Virus record (IMG/VR): IMGVR_UViG_3300032292_000698
Span: 1-64,000 of that record
Origin: a virus
Lineage: Duplodnaviria > Caudoviricetes
Reading direction: 5' to 3' (one strand)
DNA: 64,000 bases
Shown: one piece after another, positions 4,282 through 60,957 of the stretch
Position numbering within the stretch: position 1 is the stretch's first letter
Layout: the number at the start of each line of letters is the position of its first letter
Position numbers and translations under genes: made by a program
The notes under the pieces: model-generated
Told to the model about the DNA's origin: nothing
Database searches by the model: none
Seen by the model: only the letters and a program-made list of their open reading frames with translations

Positions 4282-4926
4282 ATGAATGGAAGCGTTGTAA
4301 ATAAAGCTATCTGTCTGAACTTAAATGCAAACTGGCAACCCGTCGGATTCAAGACGGTCAAAGATGCTATTATCGACCTCTGCGGTAGTGATAACAACGG
4401 CAAACCTACTTCTTTGGCTCTTGACATCGACTATGAACTTGATGAACACGGTGATCCAATCATGAGTGAAGCCAAAAGCATGAATCCAGTCAGTTGGGCA
4501 GAATGGATGTTGCTTCCTATTCGTAGTTGGGACTTGACTATTTCAAGTGTCAATAGAATTTATCGTGTTCCCACTGTCATTATTGCTACCAACTATTCAA
4601 AGATGCCAGTGAAATACTTCAAGGGCAAGCCAAGTAAAGACGCAATCTACAACCGGGATAACGGCATTTGTCAATATTCTGGAAAAAAGGTGGATCGTCA
4701 CAGTGCAACTGTTGACCACATTGTTCCTCGTAGCAAAGGTGGTGCAGATAGTTGGACCAACTTGGTGTTGTGTTCAAAAGATATCAACAGCAAAAAGGGA
4801 AACAAAACCAACAGTGAAGCGGGATTGACTTTGTTGAAAGCTCCAATTGCGCCTCAGCCAATTCCGGTTTATGCTCTTATCAAAGAAGCAAAACACGAAG
4901 ATTGGAAACATTTTTTGATGAGTTGA
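4282..4926 (+). CDS. HNH endonuclease (McrA-like)
   Basis: IYNRDNGICQYSG...TVDHIVPRSKGG.DSWTNLVLC...NSKKGNK. Confidence 0.9.
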   Translation: MNGSVVNKAICLNLNANWQPVGFKTVKDAIIDLCGSDNNGKPTSLALDIDYELDEHGDPIMSEAKSMNPVSWAEWMLLPIRSWDLTISSVNRIYRVPTVIIATNYSKMPVKYFKGKPSKDAIYNRDNGICQYSGKKVDRHSATVDHIVPRSKGGADSWTNLVLCSKDINSKKGNKTNSEAGLTLLKAPIAPQPIPVYALIKEAKHEDWKHFLMS

Positions 4927-6075: not shown

Positions 6076-6480
6076 TTACTTTATTCCTTTTCTAGTACGA
6101 TAATCGTCTAAAGCTGCTTGTAATGCTTCATGAGCAAGTACACTACAATGAATTTTAACAGGTGGAAGACCGCCAAGAGCATCAACAATGTTATCATTGT
6201 TGAAATTCTTTTCCAAGTCTGTTATTGATCGTCCTTTGATGAGTTCGGTGGCCATACTAGAAGCAGCAATAGCACTACCGCAGCCAAAAGTTTTAAATCT
6301 CGCGTCGGTAATTGTTCCAGATTGATCATCAATTTTTAGACTTATTTTCATGATATCACCACATGCAGCTGCACCAACTTCACCAACAGCATCTGCATTT
6401 TCAATGTCACCCATATTTCGTGGGTTCATGAAGTGATCCATTACGGTTTTGTTGTATAGTGTATAGGTTTCGTCATTCAT
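6076..6480 (-). CDS. iscU: Fe-S cluster scaffold IscU/NifU-N
   Basis: DHFMNPRNMG, ACGD, FKTFGCGSAIAASS, LPPVKIHCSVLA (three Cys plus LPPVK). Confidence 0.96.
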   Translation of the reverse strand: MNDETYTLYNKTVMDHFMNPRNMGDIENADAVGEVGAAACGDIMKISLKIDDQSGTITDARFKTFGCGSAIAASSMATELIKGRSITDLEKNFNNDNIVDALGGLPPVKIHCSVLAHEALQAALDDYRTRKGIK

Positions 6481-12617: not shown

Positions 12618-12652
12618 AATAGCAATAAATATGAGATTTTATAATTAAACAA

Positions 12653-12967
12653 TTATAAATTTCTTTCGGTTTGACCTCTAATAGTTTCAAAATATTGAAT
12701 CAAACGATTGACTACGTTTTCAGCAATATCGTCCAACCAATCGTTTGGATTAAATTCGGTAGTACTCAATCCTAAATGTACAGGTTTTAATTCACCTTTA
12801 TTAAACTCCTGTTTTAAAAAGTGAATTAGGTCAGCTTTTAATTGGTCTTTATGGTTAACTATAAAGACTTCACACAAACCAACTTCAGTTGGACCCTTAC
12901 CAAACCACTGACTCATGTCTTCGTCCAATTTTTCTATCTTGCTTAAAAGCTGTGATTCAAAGTCCAT
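12653..12967 (-). CDS. Hypothetical protein
   Basis: 104-aa ORF preceded by TATTTATT (12974-12981). Confidence 0.7.
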   Translation of the reverse strand: MDFESQLLSKIEKLDEDMSQWFGKGPTEVGLCEVFIVNHKDQLKADLIHFLKQEFNKGELKPVHLGLSTTEFNPNDWLDDIAENVVNRLIQYFETIRGQTERNL

Positions 12968-13030
12968 ACCACCAATAAATATACTTTAAAACATAGATAT
13001 ACCGTTTTTTATTATATTTATAGGTATTGT

Positions 13031-17462: not shown

Positions 17463-17656
17463 GGTCTGTTGTTACTCTTGTGTTTATGTTGTGAAGCTTC
17501 TTTTTCTGCTTGTTGCATTTTACTGTAACCATTAGAAGGATATGCATAATCGATTTGCCATCTACGACCTTTCATCGCTGGATGACCAATCAATGGATCT
17601 TGAATTTTCTTCTGTGATCCAATAATATACCAATCTCCCGGTGGTTTAGAATCCAT
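17459..17656 (-). CDS. Hypothetical protein
   Basis: 65-aa ORF overlapping both neighbours in a coupled manner. Confidence 0.55.
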   Translation of the reverse strand: MDSKPPGDWYIIGSQKKIQDPLIGHPAMKGRRWQIDYAYPSNGYSKMQQAEKEASQHKHKSNNRP

Positions 17657-19535
17657 AATTGCGTCTCTTTTTCTTTTCTTCCCACTTTTCGTCCATCAAT
17701 TTCTTGATTGCTTCAAAGTTGCCATATTTTTGTTCAACACGTTCACGTGTTTTGGATTCATTGGCCATATCACGTATGATATTTCCAATCTTTTCCTTTT
17801 GAGTTTCGTTCATTGGTTGTTCTTTTTGTTTTTCTTCCGCAATCTGATCAATTCCGTCAATAATAAAGTTAGAAACCTTACTAATAATCCTTTGATTCTT
17901 AATTACTGTGTCTTTGTCTGCTCTCCACAATGCAAGATATGTCGCACTATGTTTTACTGGCAAATCATAATTTCTTAAAACTGTATAGGCTACTGCTTCT
18001 GCTTGAAGTTCTGCCTGTTCACGGAGGATCAACGACCACCAGCTGGAGCTGGAATTTGACGCTTCTGCTTGAAGTTCTGCCTGTTCACGGGTTAACTTTG
18101 ATGTATATTCATCACCAAAAAATACCGAACTGTCTTTAAAATGAAGCAGTGAATGTGCAATTTCGTGAATCAACGTAGACAAACGATTCAATCCAGAAAC
18201 ATTGCTTGTCAAGTTAATATGGTCACCTCTTGCCCATCCCATTTCTCCACCTTTTGCGTCACTATGAGTAACCTTGATGCCTTTATCTTTACAGAACTCT
18301 AAAACATACTCATAAATTCTGTCAGCAGTTTCACTTGGAGTATTAGGATCGTGCCATTCAGGACTTTGAGGCGTAATACCTTTTTCAGCAGCATTTGTAT
18401 CAGCAATATCAAATACTGGAACTGCTCTAAAATACATTCTGGTTCTATCCGTTACTTCCTTACCTTCGGATCCATCATCATTTGGTTTTAGTTCTTCCTC
18501 TTTTTTAGTAATCGGAGCATAAATCCAAATAGCCTTGGCTCCTTTATTTACAGATACACCCATCTTTTTCCACGCACTAAATCCAGCAACATAGGTTGCT
18601 TTTGGGTTTTGAATGAAAATCAATATGCTGTTATTAAAACTATATTTTCTAAATCTCTTCTTGAAGTTAAGATATTCAGCAACTTTTCCACTTGTTGCCT
18701 CACCTTGTACGGCATCAGCCAATTCTTTGATAAAGTTATCAATCTTGATAGCTAACTCTTGGTTTCTACTGATCTTTGAATCATCTGCAACAAACGAAGG
18801 CAAGTCTTCGATCTTTTGAATCAAATCTTCCAGTGTCGAATTACCACCAGTTGGTTCGATCCACGTATTTTTACGACCGTCCCATTTAAAGCCAGAATTG
18901 ATATTACGAATCACAGAAGTAGCAATACCAAACTTATCTAGTCCAATTGTCCATGCAGTAATAGCAGGATCCCATCTGAATCCGTTGGCTTTCAACGCAT
19001 CCTTGTTACGATATGTTTCATTACCGGCTTCCTTTGGATTCTCAAGTGTTGATACTACAACGATTGAATCATCTTTACGACGAAGGTCTAACTTTTCGTT
19101 TAGATCCTCTTCTTCAAGCAAAAGTGGTTCATATGACTCGTTCATCATATCAGGAGTCATACCCAACATACCTAAATCACGATAGTAACGTGGATTTTCC
19201 TTTAGATTTTGAACAACGGTTTCTTTTGCAACCATTCGATTCTTGTAAATCTGTTTCTTGAGTTCATACTCCATTCCCTGACGAATATCGTCTGGAGTGA
19301 CCTTCATTTTAACTACATCGACATCTTTTTTGTATTGTTCAGGATCGATCTTGGACTTGATATCTTGATCAACCGGAGGAACAATATTGACGTTAGAACT
19401 GTCGGCGGGAAACGATCCGGGGTTCTGAGTCACATCTGGTGATGCATATGTACCAGATTGACCCGAAATTGATGGTTGTCCACCAATTGGAATCTGACTC
19501 ATGTTATATTCTTTGAAGAAGTCTTTGTATGTCAT
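17646..19535 (-). CDS. Modular protein with ArdC-like N-terminal ssDNA-binding domain and zincin (HExxH) metallopeptidase domain
   Basis: FRKYSFNNSILIFIQNPKATYVAGFSAWKKMG.SVNKGAKAIWIYAP...FRAVPVFDIADT; TLIHEIAHSLLH...ELQAEAVAY...HSATYLALW. Carries a 22-aa in-frame insertion. Confidence 0.88.
   Translation of the reverse strand: MTYKDFFKEYNMSQIPIGGQPSISGQSGTYASPDVTQNPGSFPADSSNVNIVPPVDQDIKSKIDPEQYKKDVDVVKMKVTPDDIRQGMEYELKKQIYKNRMVAKETVVQNLKENPRYYRDLGMLGMTPDMMNESYEPLLLEEEDLNEKLDLRRKDDSIVVVSTLENPKEAGNETYRNKDALKANGFRWDPAITAWTIGLDKFGIATSVIRNINSGFKWDGRKNTWIEPTGGNSTLEDLIQKIEDLPSFVADDSKISRNQELAIKIDNFIKELADAVQGEATSGKVAEYLNFKKRFRKYSFNNSILIFIQNPKATYVAGFSAWKKMGVSVNKGAKAIWIYAPITKKEEELKPNDDGSEGKEVTDRTRMYFRAVPVFDIADTNAAEKGITPQSPEWHDPNTPSETADRIYEYVLEFCKDKGIKVTHSDAKGGEMGWARGDHINLTSNVSGLNRLSTLIHEIAHSLLHFKDSSVFFGDEYTSKLTREQAELQAEASNSSSSWWSLILREQAELQAEAVAYTVLRNYDLPVKHSATYLALWRADKDTVIKNQRIISKVSNFIIDGIDQIAEEKQKEQPMNETQKEKIGNIIRDMANESKTRERVEQKYGNFEAIKKLMDEKWEEKKKRRNYGF
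17995..18090. repeat. Perfect 30-bp direct repeat flanking a unique 36-bp insert (CRISPR-unit geometry)
   Basis: GCTTCTGCTTGAAGTTCTGCCTGTTCACGG at 17995-18024 and 18061-18090; insert AGGATCAACGACCACCAGCTGGAGCTGGAATTTGAC at 18025-18060. Confidence 0.97.
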
Positions 19536-19598: not shown

Positions 19599-20258
19599 AT
19601 GAATGTAGTTTTGTCTTTATGTGAAAAATCCAGATCACCATATCCAAAGCGTAAATGTTTTGAAAATTTGTGTTCTGTATTCAAAGATCATTCAATTTAT
19701 GTCTTGGGTGATGATTTAGACACTAATCTAATATCGTTTGTAACGTCCTTTAACGTAACACTAGATAATAAAGTACGTGGTAAAGATCAATACATGCGTG
19801 ATAAGTTTGAGTTTTGTATCAACAACTTTTCTCCGGAAGATATTGTATATATGGTTGAAGACGATTATATGCACTATTCTGGCTCTGACGTATTAATACA
19901 AGAAGGATTACAACATGCAGATTATGTTACATTATACGATCATCCTGACAAGTATTCATCGTTTCCACACCCAAATCCAGAGTTAACGGATCTTGGAGAA
20001 AAAACCGTAGTGTTTTTAACAGAACATTCACATTGGAAGTATACAAACTCAACCACCGGTACATTTGCGTTTAAAAAACAAACATTGATTGAAGACTATG
20101 ACATTTGGATGAATCAAGTCGTCAATAATATTTGGTTCTACGATTATCAAGGATTTATTGATGTACGTAAAAACAATAGAAAAGTTGCATCTTGTATACC
20201 CGGACGTAGTTCACATATGTATCCAGAATTGTGTCACAGTCCGTTTTTCAAACCTTAG
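19599..20258 (+). CDS. GT-A glycosyltransferase-like protein
   Basis: VYMVEDDYMH, YVTLYDHPDKY, STTGTFA, IPGRSSH. Confidence 0.7.
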   Translation: MNVVLSLCEKSRSPYPKRKCFENLCSVFKDHSIYVLGDDLDTNLISFVTSFNVTLDNKVRGKDQYMRDKFEFCINNFSPEDIVYMVEDDYMHYSGSDVLIQEGLQHADYVTLYDHPDKYSSFPHPNPELTDLGEKTVVFLTEHSHWKYTNSTTGTFAFKKQTLIEDYDIWMNQVVNNIWFYDYQGFIDVRKNNRKVASCIPGRSSHMYPELCHSPFFKP

Positions 20259-20913
20259 TTAAATCACACAAATACTGCATCTTCACATCATCAACTATGT
20301 AATGATACGTTATTGCTTTTTTAATCAACGGTTCATCGTGGTTATATTTTTCAGGAGTATTGCTATAAAAGTAAACGCAATTTACGATTGGTATCTTTTT
20401 ATGATATGCGTTTAATCCTACATTTACATCACCAAACCGCGGCTTATAATCTATAAACTTACCACTGGTTTTTAAAAGTTGTGTACTTATACAAAACCCA
20501 GATCCTCCACTTGGATAATCGAGGTCACGAGGTATTCCCGGCTTATCAAAAATTGGATTGGTTGAGTGGTTTTGATAGTTAACCAAGTTTCCATAAATAC
20601 AGTTATGATTGAAATAATCAACTTCTTCATACAATCGATTGACATTTACAAACGTATCATCATCGCAAAATAAGATCCAATCGTATGAATCCAAAATTGT
20701 AGAATACGACTCTCGAATAGTATTAATAACGTTTACTTGTTTTTCATCAGTATCAAAATAATCTGAGGAGTCTGAAACTTTTATTACACTATTTTGTTCG
20801 TCTGTATGATCGGAGTAGAACACGGTTCGTATATTTTTTCCCCATGTATTTCTAACACGTTGAATTCTTTCGCCGTATTTTACCGTAGTCATTATAAAAG
20901 AAATGATTTTCAT
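20248..20913 (-). CDS. Fringe/GT31-like glycosyltransferase
   Basis: TWGK, YDWILFCDDDTFVNV, YPSGGSGFCIS, DVNVG, AITYHYI. Confidence 0.82.
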   Translation of the reverse strand: MKIISFIMTTVKYGERIQRVRNTWGKNIRTVFYSDHTDEQNSVIKVSDSSDYFDTDEKQVNVINTIRESYSTILDSYDWILFCDDDTFVNVNRLYEEVDYFNHNCIYGNLVNYQNHSTNPIFDKPGIPRDLDYPSGGSGFCISTQLLKTSGKFIDYKPRFGDVNVGLNAYHKKIPIVNCVYFYSNTPEKYNHDEPLIKKAITYHYIVDDVKMQYLCDLTKV

Positions 20914-21548
20914 AAGAATTTTTTGCTTCTGGGATCGTTTACGATAGCGTCGTAACGATTTGTATTTTTTTGATTGATATATGCATTAGCATAATGTACT
21001 AATAATGATGTATCATAGCCAGTCATACCGTATCTTGATTCAACTAAACTCATTACTGTGGGTTTAAAACATCTATCCATAACAGTAAGATCAGATATGT
21101 GATATCTGATTTGGTCAGTACCAATAAAATCAATTGTAGGATCAAATTTGTATGTCATTATAGTGTTGATGACATCTTTATAAAATGTATTTGGTCCACT
21201 TATTGTGGACCCTCCCATTGAGCCAGTCAAAGACACATGTTCATTTTTGTAATCAATAGGTTCAAATCCATAATTGATGACATCAAAATCGGTAATCCAA
21301 CCAGATTTGTCATACATGGTCAACCATCGCACAAAACATGCAACTTCATAATTTTTATGGTTTACTGTGGGGAATGTCTCACACACATTACAGAATTTAT
21401 CGTATTCCTCGTACTTTTTTGCATCATCCAAAGTTAATACAATAGGATTCCACCCGTAAAATTTCCAACTACGCTTCCAAACATCTAATAACCAAACATT
21501 AGCTTCGTCGTTTTCCTTTAATTGTTGATAGTAGGTGTAAATGTTCAT
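20910..21548 (-). CDS. Glycosyltransferase-like protein
   Basis: WKRSW..YGWNP, CFVRW, ITDFDVINY (DxD), LVHY. Confidence 0.6.
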   Translation of the reverse strand: MNIYTYYQQLKENDEANVWLLDVWKRSWKFYGWNPIVLTLDDAKKYEEYDKFCNVCETFPTVNHKNYEVACFVRWLTMYDKSGWITDFDVINYGFEPIDYKNEHVSLTGSMGGSTISGPNTFYKDVINTIMTYKFDPTIDFIGTDQIRYHISDLTVMDRCFKPTVMSLVESRYGMTGYDTSLLVHYANAYINQKNTNRYDAIVNDPRSKKFL

Positions 21549-24500
21549 TGGTACTTATTCTGATGTATAACTACTTTCATTCCAGAATTTAACATATAAT
21601 CACGTTGTTTTTGAGTATAAAAATACTCACCACATCCAGAATATGACGATGGAAGCCATCCAACATGATCAAATGATTTTTCTTTCAAGTCCTCGACAAT
21701 ACGAATTCCCAACTGAAGATCCCATGGTCCAGTTTGATCCACGTGAGAGGATTTATCAACAATTTTAGAGTTCAATTCCAAGTCAAAATACTTGAGAGTT
21801 TTTTTCACATCATAAAATGTAAGAGCACCATTTGTATACAAACATGGAGGGCCAATATGTTCAACCACCATGTGCAGTTTACATTCTTTTGAGTAATGAT
21901 ATCTATAGTCTAAACTACCCATGTAAATGTTTCCACATGTTTCAAATGGATGTTTAAACACCGGAGTTCCAGTTACTATCGGTTCTTTTTTCCAAGACAA
22001 ATGTTCTTGCCAAAGTGTATCATACCAATAGTCTTTTCCAACTTTACAATCCCACTCATATCCAAAGAAGTAATCCAAATTCATATCTCTGGCTATTTTT
22101 AAACCGTCCATAAACGCCCAGTAAGAGTATTTGTCAGATACAGACCATATACTCTTGGTCATCTTTGGTATTGAAGGTGTGCGTATAAACTTAACCCGAT
22201 ACTTGTTTGGTATTTCTAAATTTGAATCTGAATAAACAATGATATCAGTGTTGTTTTTAGATAAATGAAAATCTCTTAAGTTGTCTAAACACTTTAAGTG
22301 TTTCGATTCTAATACAGGCAAATACAATAGTATTGCACTCTTCAAACTACGTTTAATATACGTATGTTTGAGAGACGAATACAAATTGATAAACCGATTG
22401 TTGGTTGTTAAATCTTCCACGGTTGCACTTGTATTGTGTGCAACACATGATGTACATTTAACTGGTGTAACAAAACAAACGTCGTTTACGTTTTGTGTAA
22501 AATATAGCCAAATGAAAAGGTCGTTTCCAACAACAAATGTTGGCTTGGTATAATAGTTTTTATCAGATCCGTGTGTGGCTTCCCAATTGGTTAAACATTC
22601 GATGAGTTTATGAGTAGGAAACACCCCGTGTATAGGAGAAATGGTAAGAGGGTACTGATCAATCAATTCACGTACAAACTTAACAGATACAATACGTCGA
22701 TCTCCTCCCAATTTAACCGTATTATCACCAATAACTCGGTTAGTCTTGTAATCTACAACATTTCCATCCCAAATACCAAATGCGTAATCATCATTTAGAT
22801 ACTGCAACTCATTGGAGATTGACGGTAACATCAAATCATCATCATGCAATATGACAGACCACTTTGTAGTAACAGCTTTAACGCCTTCCAACCAACATTG
22901 GTTGTTGTTAAGATCTTCTGTAATAATTGTGACACGATGTTTAGAACGTAGTTCTTCTCCCCACTTTACGTAATCTGCATCGTTACCAGATATTACAATC
23001 GACACGTTTTTAATACCGGATTCAACTATTGATTGGTATGCGGTCTTTCCAAAATTAACACGACTACCATGACATGTTAATACTACTGTTACATCATCTA
23101 ATGCATGTAAATTACCCACAACCGAATTGTGTTTATAATACTCGTTTGTATTAACTGTTAATACATCATTCTTAAGAATAACATTCTCTTTACGTTTCAA
23201 ATCCCGAACCATTTCAATCGGTTGAGTGTACAATTGATCATTTTTGTAAAATGAAAACTCCGAGACGGACAACGACAATTTACGTACATCACCTTTAAAT
23301 TCAGATGGTTGATAATAGTCACTGTGTATTTTAATTGCAACAACGTCAGTCAAAGGAACGTTAACACTAATAACGTCATCAACCTCATACACTTTATCAG
23401 ATACCGTTTCATATGTGGGATTTTGTTCTGTCTTTGTTCTTACAACAATGTTTTTCTTAGTAAATTGATTTTTTGATGTAATGACCATTCTATCAAACTT
23501 CTGATCATTTCTTACCATCAAATTTGCCATGGGTCCACACCACTTAAAATAATTGGTGTCATTTTTCTCTACATCATACCAACCACCATCAAAAAAGATC
23601 ACGTTTGAATCCAAAATTACGCTGGGATTGTCATCAGTAACTTTCATTTTGTTGAAGATTCCCAACGAAAATTCAACGGCCTGATCAATATTACCATGCG
23701 CCCATAATTGATTGTTCAAGTCCATTCCAAACTGAAGATCATCTTGAGCCTGAAATAGTTCATAGTTTACAAAATAAATGTTAGAAAAGTTCTTCAGATA
23801 TTCTTTTTGAGCACCATATGATGTAATAACAACAGGTCTCTTGTATTTTGCCGCAATCAATGGTCCCAAACCAATTCCTTCAGATTTGGTCAATGAAAGA
23901 TATATGTCTCCAGATGCATGTATCTTAAAAATTTCATCGCTGGAAAGATGTGACCAAATGTAATAAACTGAAGGACAGTTGGGATATTTACTAACAATTT
24001 CTTGGATACGTGTCTTACATACATTTATATCATTCTCGGAATATCCGTTATAGTATGTCTTGACAATCAAAGATACGTTTTCATTATTTTGAAACGCCTT
24101 ACAAAACGTTTCAATTGTTTCTGTTATACCTTTACGTTGAGTCCATTGTCCAATCGTATAATAGTTGATTGTCTCTGACAAATTGCTTACTTTGCCAAAA
24201 CATAAAGCAGCGTTCTTAACAAACTCTATAGATTCAGATCTTTCTGGCAAAACTGGAATAATAGGATCATATATCAATGTATAAATGTCTTTGGTGACTC
24301 CACATTCGATGAATGTACTTTGATTCCACTCGGAACACACAATTACTGCATCACAGTACTTATTTAACTGATCTACGTATTCTGGTTTAATGTAATTCGA
24401 ATCCCACAATGAAAATGCGTATATTTTCTGTTTGTCTGTCCTGTTTTTGATAAAATCAATACATACACTTTCAATTACAAATGGAGGTAAATTGATGACA

Positions 24501-24808
24501 TAACATGTTGCATCTTTATCATCAAATTGTTGTTGATGAACACTTTTATAAATAACGTCATCTGGATCACGACCGTTGTACGCTAAGTAGTTGACTTTAT
24601 AACCTTTGTTACGAAGGTTAATTATAGTTTCTTTAGTTAGAATTGAATAACCATACGTTCCTGCAACCCCAACGAATATAATTCTATCTTTTTTGGTAAA
24701 TGGCAATAGATTTGAATCAACATCCTCGGTCTCTTTTACGATAGATATTTCTTTTTTTGTTAATCGGTCTACTAATGTTGGCAAAAGACTGAACTGATCT
24801 TTATTCAT
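21545..24808 (-). CDS. Multidomain glycosyltransferase (GT4 + beta-rich linker + GT2-like + further GT-A-like domain)
   Basis: GTYGYS, GQWTQRKG, SEGIGLGPLIA (GT-B); GWYDVE..FKW (accessory domain); ILHDDD (GT-A); YFFGYEWDC. Confidence 0.82.
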   Translation of the reverse strand: MNKDQFSLLPTLVDRLTKKEISIVKETEDVDSNLLPFTKKDRIIFVGVAGTYGYSILTKETIINLRNKGYKVNYLAYNGRDPDDVIYKSVHQQQFDDKDATCYVINLPPFVIESVCIDFIKNRTDKQKIYAFSLWDSNYIKPEYVDQLNKYCDAVIVCSEWNQSTFIECGVTKDIYTLIYDPIIPVLPERSESIEFVKNAALCFGKVSNLSETINYYTIGQWTQRKGITETIETFCKAFQNNENVSLIVKTYYNGYSENDINVCKTRIQEIVSKYPNCPSVYYIWSHLSSDEIFKIHASGDIYLSLTKSEGIGLGPLIAAKYKRPVVITSYGAQKEYLKNFSNIYFVNYELFQAQDDLQFGMDLNNQLWAHGNIDQAVEFSLGIFNKMKVTDDNPSVILDSNVIFFDGGWYDVEKNDTNYFKWCGPMANLMVRNDQKFDRMVITSKNQFTKKNIVVRTKTEQNPTYETVSDKVYEVDDVISVNVPLTDVVAIKIHSDYYQPSEFKGDVRKLSLSVSEFSFYKNDQLYTQPIEMVRDLKRKENVILKNDVLTVNTNEYYKHNSVVGNLHALDDVTVVLTCHGSRVNFGKTAYQSIVESGIKNVSIVISGNDADYVKWGEELRSKHRVTIITEDLNNNQCWLEGVKAVTTKWSVILHDDDLMLPSISNELQYLNDDYAFGIWDGNVVDYKTNRVIGDNTVKLGGDRRIVSVKFVRELIDQYPLTISPIHGVFPTHKLIECLTNWEATHGSDKNYYTKPTFVVGNDLFIWLYFTQNVNDVCFVTPVKCTSCVAHNTSATVEDLTTNNRFINLYSSLKHTYIKRSLKSAILLYLPVLESKHLKCLDNLRDFHLSKNNTDIIVYSDSNLEIPNKYRVKFIRTPSIPKMTKSIWSVSDKYSYWAFMDGLKIARDMNLDYFFGYEWDCKVGKDYWYDTLWQEHLSWKKEPIVTGTPVFKHPFETCGNIYMGSLDYRYHYSKECKLHMVVEHIGPPCLYTNGALTFYDVKKTLKYFDLELNSKIVDKSSHVDQTGPWDLQLGIRIVEDLKEKSFDHVGWLPSSYSGCGEYFYTQKQRDYMLNSGMKVVIHQNKYQ

Positions 24809-34120: not shown

Positions 34121-34171
34121 ACGTTTATAAGATGTAGACTTTTGGGATTGAGTCTGATACTCTATATAAGT

Positions 34172-35080
34172 ATGTCTGATATTAAAGAAGAAAAAAACAA
34201 AAAGACGGTCAGCTTTTCACAATATTCTGGATGGTTCAAGTGTCCCCACAGTTGGTACCTCAATTATTTGAAAGGTTTGCGTACTTATGAAGCCAGTCTA
34301 AATACCTGTTTTGGTACTGCCATTCACAATACGATTCAAGATTATATTAAGTCACTTTACACTGAGGGTCCAGAAGTTGCAGATGAAATGGATCTTGTTA
34401 AGAAGTTTCGTGAGGACTTTAACAAGATTTTAGCTGAAGAAAAACACACCATCAAAGAACCATTCACTGACGATGATGTCACTGGATTTCTGTTTGACGG
34501 CGAAGATATTCTAAAAACCTTCAGTAATTCTGCCAATCGAATCAAGTATTTTCCAAGCAGAAAGTATGAATTTATCGGAGTTGAACTTCCCTTGGATGTT
34601 CCGATCAAAAACAACGTGCGGTTCATTGCGTATGTTGATTTGATTCTACGTGATAGGACCAACGGTAAATACAAGATTTGGGATTTCAAGACCAGTGCAA
34701 TGGGTTGGAACAAGTATCAACTTGCAGATGAAAGTAAATACGCACAGTTGTTGCTGTACAAGGCATTTTACGCAAAGCAATTTAATGTTCCTCTTGAGTC
34801 GATTGATGTTGAGTTCTTCATTTTGAAGCGTAAACTGTATGAGAACGTGGCTTTCCCACAAAGCCGTATTCAGATTTTTGAACCGTCTCATACCAAGAGT
34901 TACGTTTCCAAGTCGTTGGTTACATTTACATCGTTCATTGATGAATGTTTTACTCCAGAAGGAACTTACAAGGAAGATGGTTATTATCCAAAAGTTCCCG
35001 GTAAAGCCAAAAAGAATTGTAAGTATTGTACTCATTACAAAACCAATTGTGATGGCAAAGAAACTAAAGACGATAATTAA
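34172..35080 (+). CDS. PD-(D/E)XK nuclease, Cas4/AddB-like with four-Cys Fe-S staple
   Basis: SFSQY...KCP, FGTAIH, VE, YVDLI, IWDFKTS, QLLLY, C-terminal CKYC.....C. Confidence 0.88.
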   Translation: MSDIKEEKNKKTVSFSQYSGWFKCPHSWYLNYLKGLRTYEASLNTCFGTAIHNTIQDYIKSLYTEGPEVADEMDLVKKFREDFNKILAEEKHTIKEPFTDDDVTGFLFDGEDILKTFSNSANRIKYFPSRKYEFIGVELPLDVPIKNNVRFIAYVDLILRDRTNGKYKIWDFKTSAMGWNKYQLADESKYAQLLLYKAFYAKQFNVPLESIDVEFFILKRKLYENVAFPQSRIQIFEPSHTKSYVSKSLVTFTSFIDECFTPEGTYKEDGYYPKVPGKAKKNCKYCTHYKTNCDGKETKDDN

Positions 35081-57951: not shown

Positions 57952-58878
57952 TTATTTGAACTCGTTTTGAAATTTTTCGATTGCGTAATCTTTGGCTTTA
58001 AACTCCATTTCCAGATCCAACGAACCATCGTAGTTACGATACTCAGCCGGAAACTCACGAACATAACCGCCATGTGACCGAGGATTCTTTTCGTTGGGGT
58101 CATTGTCACTAAAGTGAAACAGTGGCACAAAATTTGACCATGTACTAACAGCCATTTTCAAAGCTTCCTCAGCTGTTTGACGACCGGGATTGCAACGAAA
58201 ATGAAGATTGTCATAGGTGATAGGAATTCCAGTCTGTTGATACACGTGTTCATACAACTGTTCAACATTCCAACTGTTAGGCTTGTCTTCATTCTCCAAG
58301 ACCAGTCTACTCTTCACCGAGTCATCAAGATCGTTGTATACGTCAATAAAGCGTTTTGCAATATCCTTTAGATCAGCACCCTTGAAACAGTTCATGTGAA
58401 TGTTGATGGGAGCTTCATACGAACGTGGAAGTTGAAGATAATCCATCATTTTGCCGTGAGCATGAAGTTCGATGATCGACTTAGCCACAGTTTGAACGTT
58501 TGCACTAGCAGGTACAACAAATTGATCAGGGTGAGTGCTACAACGAATGTTGTTTTTCCGAATCACTTCAGCAGCAATATCAAACTCTTGTTTGATCAAA
58601 TTGAAGTTGTAGGTGTTTTCAATAACCAGATTAGCTTCTGGAAGAGTTTCCAACGGCATCATACCGCTGCTGACACGATAGTTCCACTTACGAGATGCAC
58701 AAAACTCAAGAGTCTTACGAGTTACAACCACGTTGTTGAGAGTACGATCAGCAACAATTCGTTCAGCATTGCTACGCTCCAACTGAAGAAACCGAGTTTT
58801 GGTCATGGTTGACGCTTGAATTCCTTGTTCTTGAAGTTGAAGAGAGATACAACACAGACTGTAACGATGTTTACGCAT
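57952..58878 (-). CDS. uvsE: UV-damage endonuclease
   Basis: YRVSSGMMP, RCSTHPDQFVV, INIH, RLVLENEDK, ITYDNLH, LFHFS, RSH, MEFKAKD. Start reassigned to ATG 58878. Confidence 0.93.
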   Translation of the reverse strand: MRKHRYSLCCISLQLQEQGIQASTMTKTRFLQLERSNAERIVADRTLNNVVVTRKTLEFCASRKWNYRVSSGMMPLETLPEANLVIENTYNFNLIKQEFDIAAEVIRKNNIRCSTHPDQFVVPASANVQTVAKSIIELHAHGKMMDYLQLPRSYEAPINIHMNCFKGADLKDIAKRFIDVYNDLDDSVKSRLVLENEDKPNSWNVEQLYEHVYQQTGIPITYDNLHFRCNPGRQTAEEALKMAVSTWSNFVPLFHFSDNDPNEKNPRSHGGYVREFPAEYRNYDGSLDLEMEFKAKDYAIEKFQNEFK

Positions 58879-58883
58879 AAAAA

Positions 58884-58913
58884 GACTGTACCATGTGGGT
58901 ACAGTCATGTAAA
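58884..58913 (-). promoter_or_regulatory. uvsE promoter overlapped by a 9-bp inverted repeat
   Basis: TTTACA-17nt-TACAGT; GACTGTACC-n5-GGTACAGTC at 58884-58906. Confidence 0.6.
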
Positions 58914-59775: not shown

Positions 59776-60957
59776 TCACCGTCCAACTTCTTTAAAAAAG
59801 TGTTCTTTCGCCGTGACATACGACATATCAATCATGCTATTGTAGTACAAAACATCGTTTTTCAAATTGTTTTCACTCTTCAACTTCAAATATCTATCCT
59901 TGGCTTTGGGTCTCCACCAGTCTAAAATAGCCTTGGTATCGTCCTTAAACAATGGTTTCATCACCAATTTATCCTCAGAAATCTTGTTTTGCAAGAATTC
60001 CTTGGTATTTTCATAAAAACAACTGTAATAAACACCCCGTTCATACCCATGAACGTATTCTTGAGTCTTTAATTTCAATTCTTGAAAGATCATACTAATA
60101 ACTCTTTGTTTTGCACCAGTAACAGGACCAGAAATATTGTCCTTTTGAGTCATTTTCTTGTCGTATTCTCCCTTTTTGTGTTCCTTAATCCAGTCATGCC
60201 ATGCTTCATACACAATATCGTCTGGCTTAATAGGAATCTTACCAGCACTGGTTCCACACTTATGCCACCACTTCAAACTGTTATACATACTGTAACTACC
60301 ATAAAGACTTGTAGTAGTCATTCCTACCAAGGTTTGATCATACAGTTTCTTCCAAACATCACGTACTACTGATGATGTCACCAAACAAGCAACCAATTTT
60401 CCACCCAAAAAGTTAAATCCAAAGGGTTGCGTACTCATAATACAACTTCCGATTGCACTATGTACCAACTTACGATCATCCAACTTATTCTCAGCAGTCC
60501 ATCCTACGTACTTGTCTCGGTCATTGATCGTAATCACGTCACTTGATACAGAAACCGCTCCTAGGTACCGTGGGCGTTCTTCATTGCCATCTGTAATCAG
60601 AAACTTCAAAAACCTTCCCGGTGTCTGACTAAATTCCATGGTATGGCAAAACAACCGCAACATCAACCAATCCAATTCTTGTTGTTCGGTAGTTACATGA
60701 ACCATGGTAGGATTCATTTCATCCAACTGTTTCAATGTAAGAGCTTCATCATTAATATCCTTGGGTTTCCAAATTTTGCATTTTACGTCATCTGATCTAC
60801 TAGCGTAGCTCTGATATTGTTTGACTTCTTCCCACTTTTTATAGAATGTAGCTTCTTCCACACTCATGGACTTTAACGCATTCATGTTATCTATGAACTT
60901 CTTTTTTTCAAGTTCATAGTTAAACTCAATGCCTTCCATATCAAAAAAATTAGTCAT
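59776..60957 (-). CDS. DUF4338/Druantia DruA-like protein
   Basis: PGRFLKFLI, YLGAVSVSSDV..RD.YVGW, QPFGFNFLGGKLVA, TTTSLYG, G.SAG. Confidence 0.78.
   Translation of the reverse strand: MTNFFDMEGIEFNYELEKKKFIDNMNALKSMSVEEATFYKKWEEVKQYQSYASRSDDVKCKIWKPKDINDEALTLKQLDEMNPTMVHVTTEQQELDWLMLRLFCHTMEFSQTPGRFLKFLITDGNEERPRYLGAVSVSSDVITINDRDKYVGWTAENKLDDRKLVHSAIGSCIMSTQPFGFNFLGGKLVACLVTSSVVRDVWKKLYDQTLVGMTTTSLYGSYSMYNSLKWWHKCGTSAGKIPIKPDDIVYEAWHDWIKEHKKGEYDKKMTQKDNISGPVTGAKQRVISMIFQELKLKTQEYVHGYERGVYYSCFYENTKEFLQNKISEDKLVMKPLFKDDTKAILDWWRPKAKDRYLKLKSENNLKNDVLYYNSMIDMSYVTAKEHFFKEVGR

What the first reader, a model, noticed from the sequence alone, without database searches (positions are those of the whole stretch)
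17995..18090. One CRISPR-sized unit (30-bp duplication plus 36-bp insert) written in frame into an ArdC-like/zincin gene
Seen: an exact 30-bp repeat (17995-18024, 18061-18090) with sharp edges on both sides flanks a unique 36-mer. The net +66 bp keeps the frame, giving REQAELQAEA-SNSSSSWWSLIL-REQAELQAEA. It duplicates the ExxAE helix that normally supplies the third zinc ligand after HExxH. Simple slippage would not add 36 unrelated bases. Two readings are possible. (A) The 36-mer is a captured spacer and the 30-mer is the target-site duplication of an off-target Cas1-Cas2-type integration (type I-B-like 30/36 sizes). On the + strand it reads as open, C/G-ending codons (ATC AAC GAC CAC CAG CTG GAG CTG = RINDHQLELEFD), like a fragment of a GC-richer gene. 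(B) The 36-mer is a CRISPR repeat and the 30-mer is a spacer matching this phage (type II/VI-B 36/30 sizes). It has a CCAGC-TGGA-GCTGG hairpin followed by an 8-nt tail AATTTGAC, and its reverse complement runs GTC...CT. It could have entered by recombination of a repeat-spacer unit at the protospacer, or by an assembly loop through the host array. Either reading links the phage to a host CRISPR system. If real, it is a route for CRISPR machinery to edit phage genes, or for a phage to gain a solitary repeat. Caveat: insert GC (19/36) is no higher than the repeat itself (16/30).
Basis: partly seen in the sequence, partly recalled or inferred. Interest (0 to 1): 0.88.

Follow-up and report, generated by a model that had tools for sequence, protein, structure and literature searches.

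The report
Bacterial gene scrap inside lake phage
A large uncultured lake phage carries a real, recent 36-base piece of a Verrucomicrobia pilus gene inside one of its own genes, flanked by a 30-base duplication; this looks like a CRISPR spacer-inserting enzyme hitting the phage by mistake, and it points to the phage's probable host.

Summary
Confirmed: an exact 30-bp duplication flanks a unique 36-mer, adding 22 residues in frame to an ArdC-like gene of a large freshwater phage. Two source-study runs hold the unit as one unbranched contig at about 57% and 87% of flank depth. All close relatives checked have the empty site, ten with the identical 30-mer. The 36-mer is not a CRISPR repeat. It is exactly 12 codons of pilB from freshwater Limisphaerales (Verrucomicrobiota): 34/36 to the closest homolog, every mismatch synonymous, homology ending at the insert edges. 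Reading A (captured gene fragment) is supported; reading B is rejected. Best mechanism (about 0.55): off-target Cas1-Cas2 integration of host DNA into the phage during infection. Not proven: arrays in the donor's genus have 36-37-bp repeats rather than 30, no canonical PAM flanks the donor, and no Cas1 was found in partial phage relatives. The unit lies in a roughly 185-bp recombination patch shared with a sister lineage. The scan has reported similar scars on other DNA, including phages. What this case adds is a bacterial chromosomal donor that names a probable host for an uncultured phage.

The parts
17995..18024 (.). Copy 1 of the 30-bp target duplication. On the - strand (gene sense) it is the downstream copy, joined to the native C-terminal half of the helix carrying the conserved Glu after HExxH.
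   Evidence: the AF2 model uses this copy as the high-confidence core helix
18025..18060 (-). 36-bp insert: 12 codons of a Limisphaerales pilB gene (MshEN domain, about residues 121-132), donor sense strand on the - strand. It may be 37 bp with a 29-bp duplication, because the closest donors have C at -1.
   Evidence: 32/36 to L008, 34/36 to L083, all mismatches synonymous third positions; a blind BLAST of the window recovers 18026-18060 in G001, G015 and G071
18061..18090 (.). Copy 2 of the 30-bp duplication (upstream copy in gene sense)
   Evidence: identical single empty site in L216-L225
17646..19535 (-). ArdC-like protein gene (ArdcN domain plus HExxH...E metallopeptidase domain); 629 aa with the insert, 607 aa without
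17979..18228 (.). Recombination patch, about 185 bp without the insert, shared with a sister lineage that is about 92% identical over the gene; it encloses the insertion on both sides
   Evidence: 17 of 21 SNPs against the common allele fall here (binomial P 5e-14); nearly identical to the P0012 lineage

Best explanation
Inside a Limisphaerales (Verrucomicrobiota) cell infected by this large lytic phage, a spacer-sized piece of the host pilB gene was integrated into the phage DNA instead of a CRISPR array. Both 3' ends were joined to opposite strands about 30 bp apart and gap filling duplicated the target, which is the Cas1-Cas2 full-site reaction at an off-target site. The 66-bp gain happened to keep the frame and leaves one intact copy of the catalytic helix, so it was probably tolerated and reached high frequency in one phage population. 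Shown: the unit, the empty ancestral site, the donor gene family. Inferred: that the donor is the host, that Cas1-Cas2 did it, and that the protein still works.
For: Donor is a chromosomal pilB in a pilT-pilB-pilC operon: 34/36 nt, all mismatches synonymous, chance E about 2e-6 in 1e12 bases. Homology stops at the insert edges with at most 1 nt shared with the target, so there is no microhomology. The empty site with the identical 30-mer exists in 10 contigs, and all 132 other homologous proteins examined lack the extra residues. Both lengths are in the CRISPR range, and 36-37 bp is a usual spacer length in this family's arrays. Five of 13 genomes of the donor's genus encode Cas2 and the same five encode Cas1; 30 of 81 in the family have Cas1. 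Off-target full-site integration with repeat-length spacing and G/C borders is shown in vitro for P. furiosus Cas1-Cas2 (PMC6698737), and the target here starts with G on one strand and C on the other. Off-target integration in vivo is reported for E. coli (Nivala 2018, as cited in PMC7054753 and bioRxiv 10.1101/148544).
Against: Repeats found beside Cas1 in the donor's genus are 36-37 bp, and 29 bp with 32-bp spacers elsewhere in the family; none gives 30/36. A pattern search for 29-30-bp GTT...TGAAAY arrays in 301 genomes of the order gave only scattered chance-level hits. The two GTDB genomes closest to the donor lack Cas1 and Cas2 matches (incomplete MAGs). Donor flanks read ACC/ACG on one side and AGC/GGC on the other, not the TTN/TTC, CCN or AAG PAMs listed in PMC8482600. 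The target resembles the family's repeats only weakly: 5 terminal bases match a I-G-like repeat end, which 3.6% of random 30-mers also reach. It is a single event, with no second scar in the window or 757 kb of relatives. No spacer from 161 family spacers matches the phage, so the host link rests on the insert alone.
Confidence: 0.55

Rival explanations
1. Non-CRISPR break repair: a staggered break or two overlapping phage DNA ends were ligated across a degradation fragment of host DNA during recombination-driven phage replication, and the CRISPR-like sizes are coincidence helped by selection for a short in-frame gain.
For: The duplication length matches no array seen in the donor's genus, and no PAM is found. 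The site lies in a recent recombination patch. The phage encodes an HNH nuclease, a PD-(D/E)XK nuclease and UvdE.
Against: Both flanks and both copies belong to the same sister-lineage patch, so the unit is not at the crossover between two genomes. There is no junction microhomology. End joining gives no reason for both lengths to fall in the 28-40-bp range (inference).
Confidence: 0.3
2. A phage-encoded integrase (Cas1-like, or a CRISPR adaptation module in the unseen part of this or a co-infecting phage genome) with a 30/36 ruler wrote host DNA into the phage.
For: It would explain the mismatch with host arrays. Only 121 kb of the source contig is known, and relatives are 14-49% complete by CheckV.
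Against: No Cas1 in 11 partial relatives, and no CRISPR-like array or second scar in 757 kb of them.
Confidence: 0.1
3. One reading: the 36-mer is a CRISPR repeat and the 30-mer a spacer, joined by recombination or by an assembly loop; or the unit is a chimera.
For: 30 bp equals k-1 for k=31 graphs, and the 36-mer folds into a modest hairpin (z -1.6 and -1.9).
Against: The 36-mer is pilB coding DNA, single copy wherever found. The loop record is unbranched and at 57-87% of phage depth in two samples. Other assemblies give the same 629-aa product.
Confidence: 0.03

Closest known systems
Off-target (non-canonical) spacer integration by Cas1-Cas2, 'neo-CRISPR' units (Nivala, Shipman and Church 2018, not held, read only through PMC7054753 and bioRxiv 10.1101/148544; in vitro P. 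furiosus, PMC6698737)
   Same: Spacer-sized foreign DNA between exact direct copies of a non-CRISPR target of repeat-like length; no junction homology; G/C target borders; empty ancestral site.
   Different: Natural rather than induced by overexpression; the target is a large lytic phage genome and the donor a bacterial chromosomal gene; the duplication length matches no array found in the donor's genus; no PAM found.
Type I-B-like 30-bp repeat duplication (Haloarcula hispanica, PMC4872114; P. furiosus 30-bp repeats with 37-bp spacers, PMC6698737)
   Same: 30/36 or 29/37 geometry; the H. hispanica paper shows that ruler motifs set the duplication size, giving 29-33 bp when disturbed.
   Different: No such array found in the donor's family or in 301 genomes of its order; donor flanks do not fit the listed I-B PAMs.
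ArdC antirestriction proteins of plasmid R388 (PDB 6i89, 6sna) and of huge phages (bioRxiv 10.1101/2025.02.27.640493)
   Same: ArdcN domain plus HExxH metalloprotease domain; Foldseek E 1.3e-7.
   Different: Long extra N-terminal region, low TM-score (0.27), function untested; this allele has a 22-residue insertion.

Membership tests
Off-target Cas1-Cas2 spacer integration | Exact target-site duplication with an empty ancestral site | tested here: met
   Identical single 30-mer in L216-L225; skip of 66 bp in run X4
Off-target Cas1-Cas2 spacer integration | Insert is foreign DNA of spacer length with no junction homology | tested here: met
   36 (or 37) bp of pilB, at most 1 nt shared with the target; family spacers span 31-41 bp
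Off-target Cas1-Cas2 spacer integration | Duplication length equals the repeat length of a CRISPR system in the same cell | tested here: not met
   Genus arrays have 36-37-bp repeats; family also 29/32; no 30/36. The exact donor genome was not available.
Off-target Cas1-Cas2 spacer integration | cas1 and cas2 present in the donor cell or the phage | tested here: inconclusive
   5 of 13 genus genomes have both; the two closest MAGs and 11 partial phage relatives have no Cas1
Off-target Cas1-Cas2 spacer integration | Subtype PAM beside the protospacer in the donor | tested here: inconclusive
   Flanks ACC/ACG and AGC/GGC in homologs fit no listed I-B, I-C, I-G or I-E PAM (ACC is listed for I-F, whose sizes differ); exact donor unknown; type III needs no PAM
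Off-target Cas1-Cas2 spacer integration | Target resembles the leader-repeat sequence | tested here: inconclusive
   5-nt end match to a I-G-like repeat (3.6% of random 30-mers); best identity 14/30 is background
CRISPR repeat (type II or VI-B, solitary repeat unit) | 36-mer occurs as a tandem repeat in arrays and is not coding DNA | tested here: not met
   No hit in viral or metagenome collections; genome hits are single-copy coding DNA
ArdC-like antirestriction protein | ArdcN domain plus HExxH...E metalloprotease domain | tested here: met
   Pfam ArdcN E 1.5e-11; invariant H, E, H and downstream E; Foldseek to 6i89
ArdC-like antirestriction protein | ssDNA binding and antirestriction activity | not testable with these tools
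   Needs biochemistry

The most novel reading that the evidence does not exclude
A CRISPR adaptation integrase with a 30/36 ruler, not yet seen in Limisphaerales and possibly phage-borne, writes fragments of the host chromosome into lytic phage genomes in nature. The edits can reach high frequency and move between phage lineages by recombination, so such scars are both a source of protein insertions and a general 'reverse spacer' tag for assigning hosts to uncultured phages.
Probability: 0.25. Interest if true: 0.82.

Novelty: new variant of a known kind. Interest (0 to 1): 0.6.

Why it matters
Phage hosts are usually assigned from phage DNA stored in host arrays. Here the direction is reversed: host DNA sits in the phage and points to a freshwater Limisphaerales lineage for a widespread phage whose closest record among annotated phage genomes has only 45% polymerase identity. 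If Cas1-Cas2 is responsible, off-target adaptation is a real mutagen of wild lytic phages and not only a laboratory effect, and mining phage genomes for such scars becomes a testable host-prediction method. The mismatch between the 30-bp duplication and the 36-37-bp repeats of the donor's genus raises a concrete question about how the ruler behaves at off-target sites.

Tried and rejected
Exact 36-mer in viral contigs and a 26-mer in JGI metagenome contigs: no hit. The exact donor (36/36) was not found: nothing within 3 mismatches in 401 genomes of the order, degenerate metagenome scan best 32/36, best overall 34/36. The other three 22-mer hits (L007, L009, L010) do not extend and are treated as chance. 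Template switching within the phage is rejected: best self-match 21/36 in the window and 23/36 in 1.2 Mb of phage loci. Cas1 in phage relatives: none, but all are partial. The loose pattern search for 30-bp arrays returned only chance hits and covers only GTT...TGAAAY-type repeats. Independent host evidence failed: family spacers against the phage, window 1-40000 against 81 family genomes (only the conserved iscU-like gene, weak gene matches and the insert itself), and the IscU homolog search gave no usable taxonomy. No whole genome is held for the window, and no raw reads were offered. The Nivala 2018 paper is not held. Three literature searches found no report of a natural host-to-phage case, which is weak evidence because most subscription papers are not searched. 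The AF2 model is biased by an alignment that places homologs on the second copy, and no empty-allele control was folded.

Full report
Observation. The sequence shows an exact 30-bp direct repeat at 17995-18024 and 18061-18090 around a unique 36-mer, with mismatching bases just outside both copies. It lies in ORF 17646-19535(-), 629 aa, with an ArdcN domain and an HExxH metallopeptidase-like domain; a predicted model matches R388 ArdC. The window is part of a large phage (family B polymerase, clamp-loader-like ATPase, thymidylate synthase, many glycan genes), 36.6% GC. It comes from a 121-kb contig and is found in many lake metagenomes. Related contigs are 14-49% complete by CheckV.

Is it real? 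Because 30 equals k-1 for k=31 graphs, an assembly loop was a serious worry. In runs X1 and X2 the repeat-insert-repeat unit is one unbranched 96-nt contig at depth 23.8 and 18.6, against flanks near 42 and 21. A CRISPR repeat shared by other spacers, or an abundant donor genome, would branch this record. The depth ratio is 0.57 in X1 (Poisson P 0.002 if fixed) and 0.87 in X2 (compatible with fixed), so the allele is common and probably polymorphic; this rests on contig depth only. The exact 629-aa product was read on 4 JGI/ENA contigs. These may all be the same samples, and no raw reads could be laid. Runs from two other studies show the empty site, as do six IMG/VR relatives, 16 close relatives, most 97-99.5% identical over the aligned blocks, and all 132 other homologous proteins examined. 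Ten contigs of one sister lineage carry the identical 30-mer once. The insertion is therefore recent and strain-specific.

What the insert is. A 22-mer scan of GTDB genomes gave four hits. One, in a freshwater Verrucomicrobiota MAG, extends to 32/36 with all four mismatches at third codon positions (P 0.005 for that pattern alone). On the - strand the insert is exactly 12 codons, VKFQLQLVVVDP, in the MshEN domain of PilB, in a pilT-pilB-pilC operon. Homologs fetched afterwards, without selection on the DNA, improved the match to 33/36 and 34/36, again with synonymous differences only, and every insert base is present in at least one homolog with the same peptide. The chance expectation for 34/36 in 1e12 bases is about 2e-6. 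The identical peptide is confined to four related 90% clusters among the PilB proteins listed, one member being named a Limisphaerales bacterium. A blind BLAST of 20 kb of the window against 81 family genomes returned the insert interval. Similarity ends at the insert edges. The closest donors have C at -1, matching the last base of the duplication, so a 37+29 split is also possible. The exact donor was not found. Reading B is thus rejected and reading A supported, in a different frame from the one proposed.

How it most likely arose. A foreign spacer-sized fragment between exact copies of a roughly 30-bp target, without junction homology, is the product expected from a Cas1-Cas2 full-site reaction at a non-CRISPR site. 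P. furiosus Cas1-Cas2 makes paired off-target attacks 30-31 bp apart with G/C border preference (PMC6698737), and off-target events occur in E. coli (Nivala 2018, cited in PMC7054753). The donor's genus has the machinery in 5 of 13 genomes. I infer that the event took place in an infected Limisphaerales cell, where host fragments and many phage genome copies coexist. Against this: arrays beside Cas1 in the genus have 36-37-bp repeats (spacers about 33-40 bp), the family adds 29/32, and none is 30/36; no 30-bp GTT...TGAAAY array stood out in 301 genomes of the order; donor flanks fit no matching PAM in PMC8482600; target-repeat likeness is marginal; no Cas1 lies in 11 partial phage relatives. 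Ruler motifs can shift duplication length by a few bases (29-33 bp for a 30-bp repeat, PMC4872114), but a 6-7-bp shift is not documented in what I read. I put Cas1-Cas2 of the host cell at 0.55, non-CRISPR end joining at 0.30, a phage-borne integrase at 0.10 and an artefact or reading B at 0.03.

Context. Against the commonest empty allele, 17 of 21 differences in the gene fall in a 185-bp tract that spans the target. The tract is nearly identical to a sister lineage that differs at about 150 positions over the whole gene. The unit thus sits inside a recombination patch, with patch sequence on both sides, so it is not the crossover itself. Whether the insert arrived with the patch or later cannot be told.

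Effect on the protein. The spacing from HExxH to the conserved Glu is 28-31 residues in nearly all homologs and reaches 37 in one. AlphaFold2 keeps the fold (mean pLDDT 85, pTM 0.78), using the second copy with its native continuation as the confident core helix and placing the first copy plus insert as a low-confidence extra helix. The alignment biases this result, and activity is untested. ArdC genes are reported in about 100 huge phages (bioRxiv 10.1101/2025.02.27.640493).

Comparison and verdict. It works like off-target spacer integration, but membership is not established because the repeat-length test was not met on the genomes available. The scan has noted similar scars in other genomes, including two phages with phage-derived inserts and a prophage (unchecked notes, not counted as support). 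I found no paper on a natural host-to-lytic-phage case. What this case adds is a well-identified bacterial chromosomal donor inside a large phage, a high population frequency, and an unusual 30/36 geometry. It is a single scar rather than a working system, and the host link has no independent confirmation. Novelty: new variant of a known kind. Interest 0.6.

Noticed in passing
window 17979-18228: Recombination patch of about 185 bp shared with a sister lineage encloses the insertion; 16 of its 17 differences from the common allele are synonymous.
   Followed up: partly
window 12633-12972: A 104-aa ORF (12653-12967, -) absent from most close relatives, whose flanks overlap by about 10 bp at the empty site; some relatives carry a different 188-aa gene there.
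   Followed up: no
window 6076-6480 (-): Phage-encoded IscU/NifU-type Fe-S scaffold gene, conserved across this phage group.
   Followed up: partly
window 59776-60957 (-), 57952-58908 (-), 34142-35080 (+), 4282-4926 (+): DruA-like gene, UvdE endonuclease, PD-(D/E)XK nuclease and HNH endonuclease.
   Followed up: no
window 19599-24808 versus L209-L214: The glycosyltransferase-like block next to the ArdC-like gene is replaced by a different set in otherwise 97-98% identical relatives.
   Followed up: no
L115:4696-4775: 23-bp AT-rich duplication around a 34-bp AT-rich stretch in a related phage; probably low-complexity chance, but CRISPR-like in spacing.
   Followed up: no
L114, L124, L137: Very long 9-bp-unit Gly-rich repeat genes (collagen-like or Ser/Thr fibres) in related phages.
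   Followed up: no
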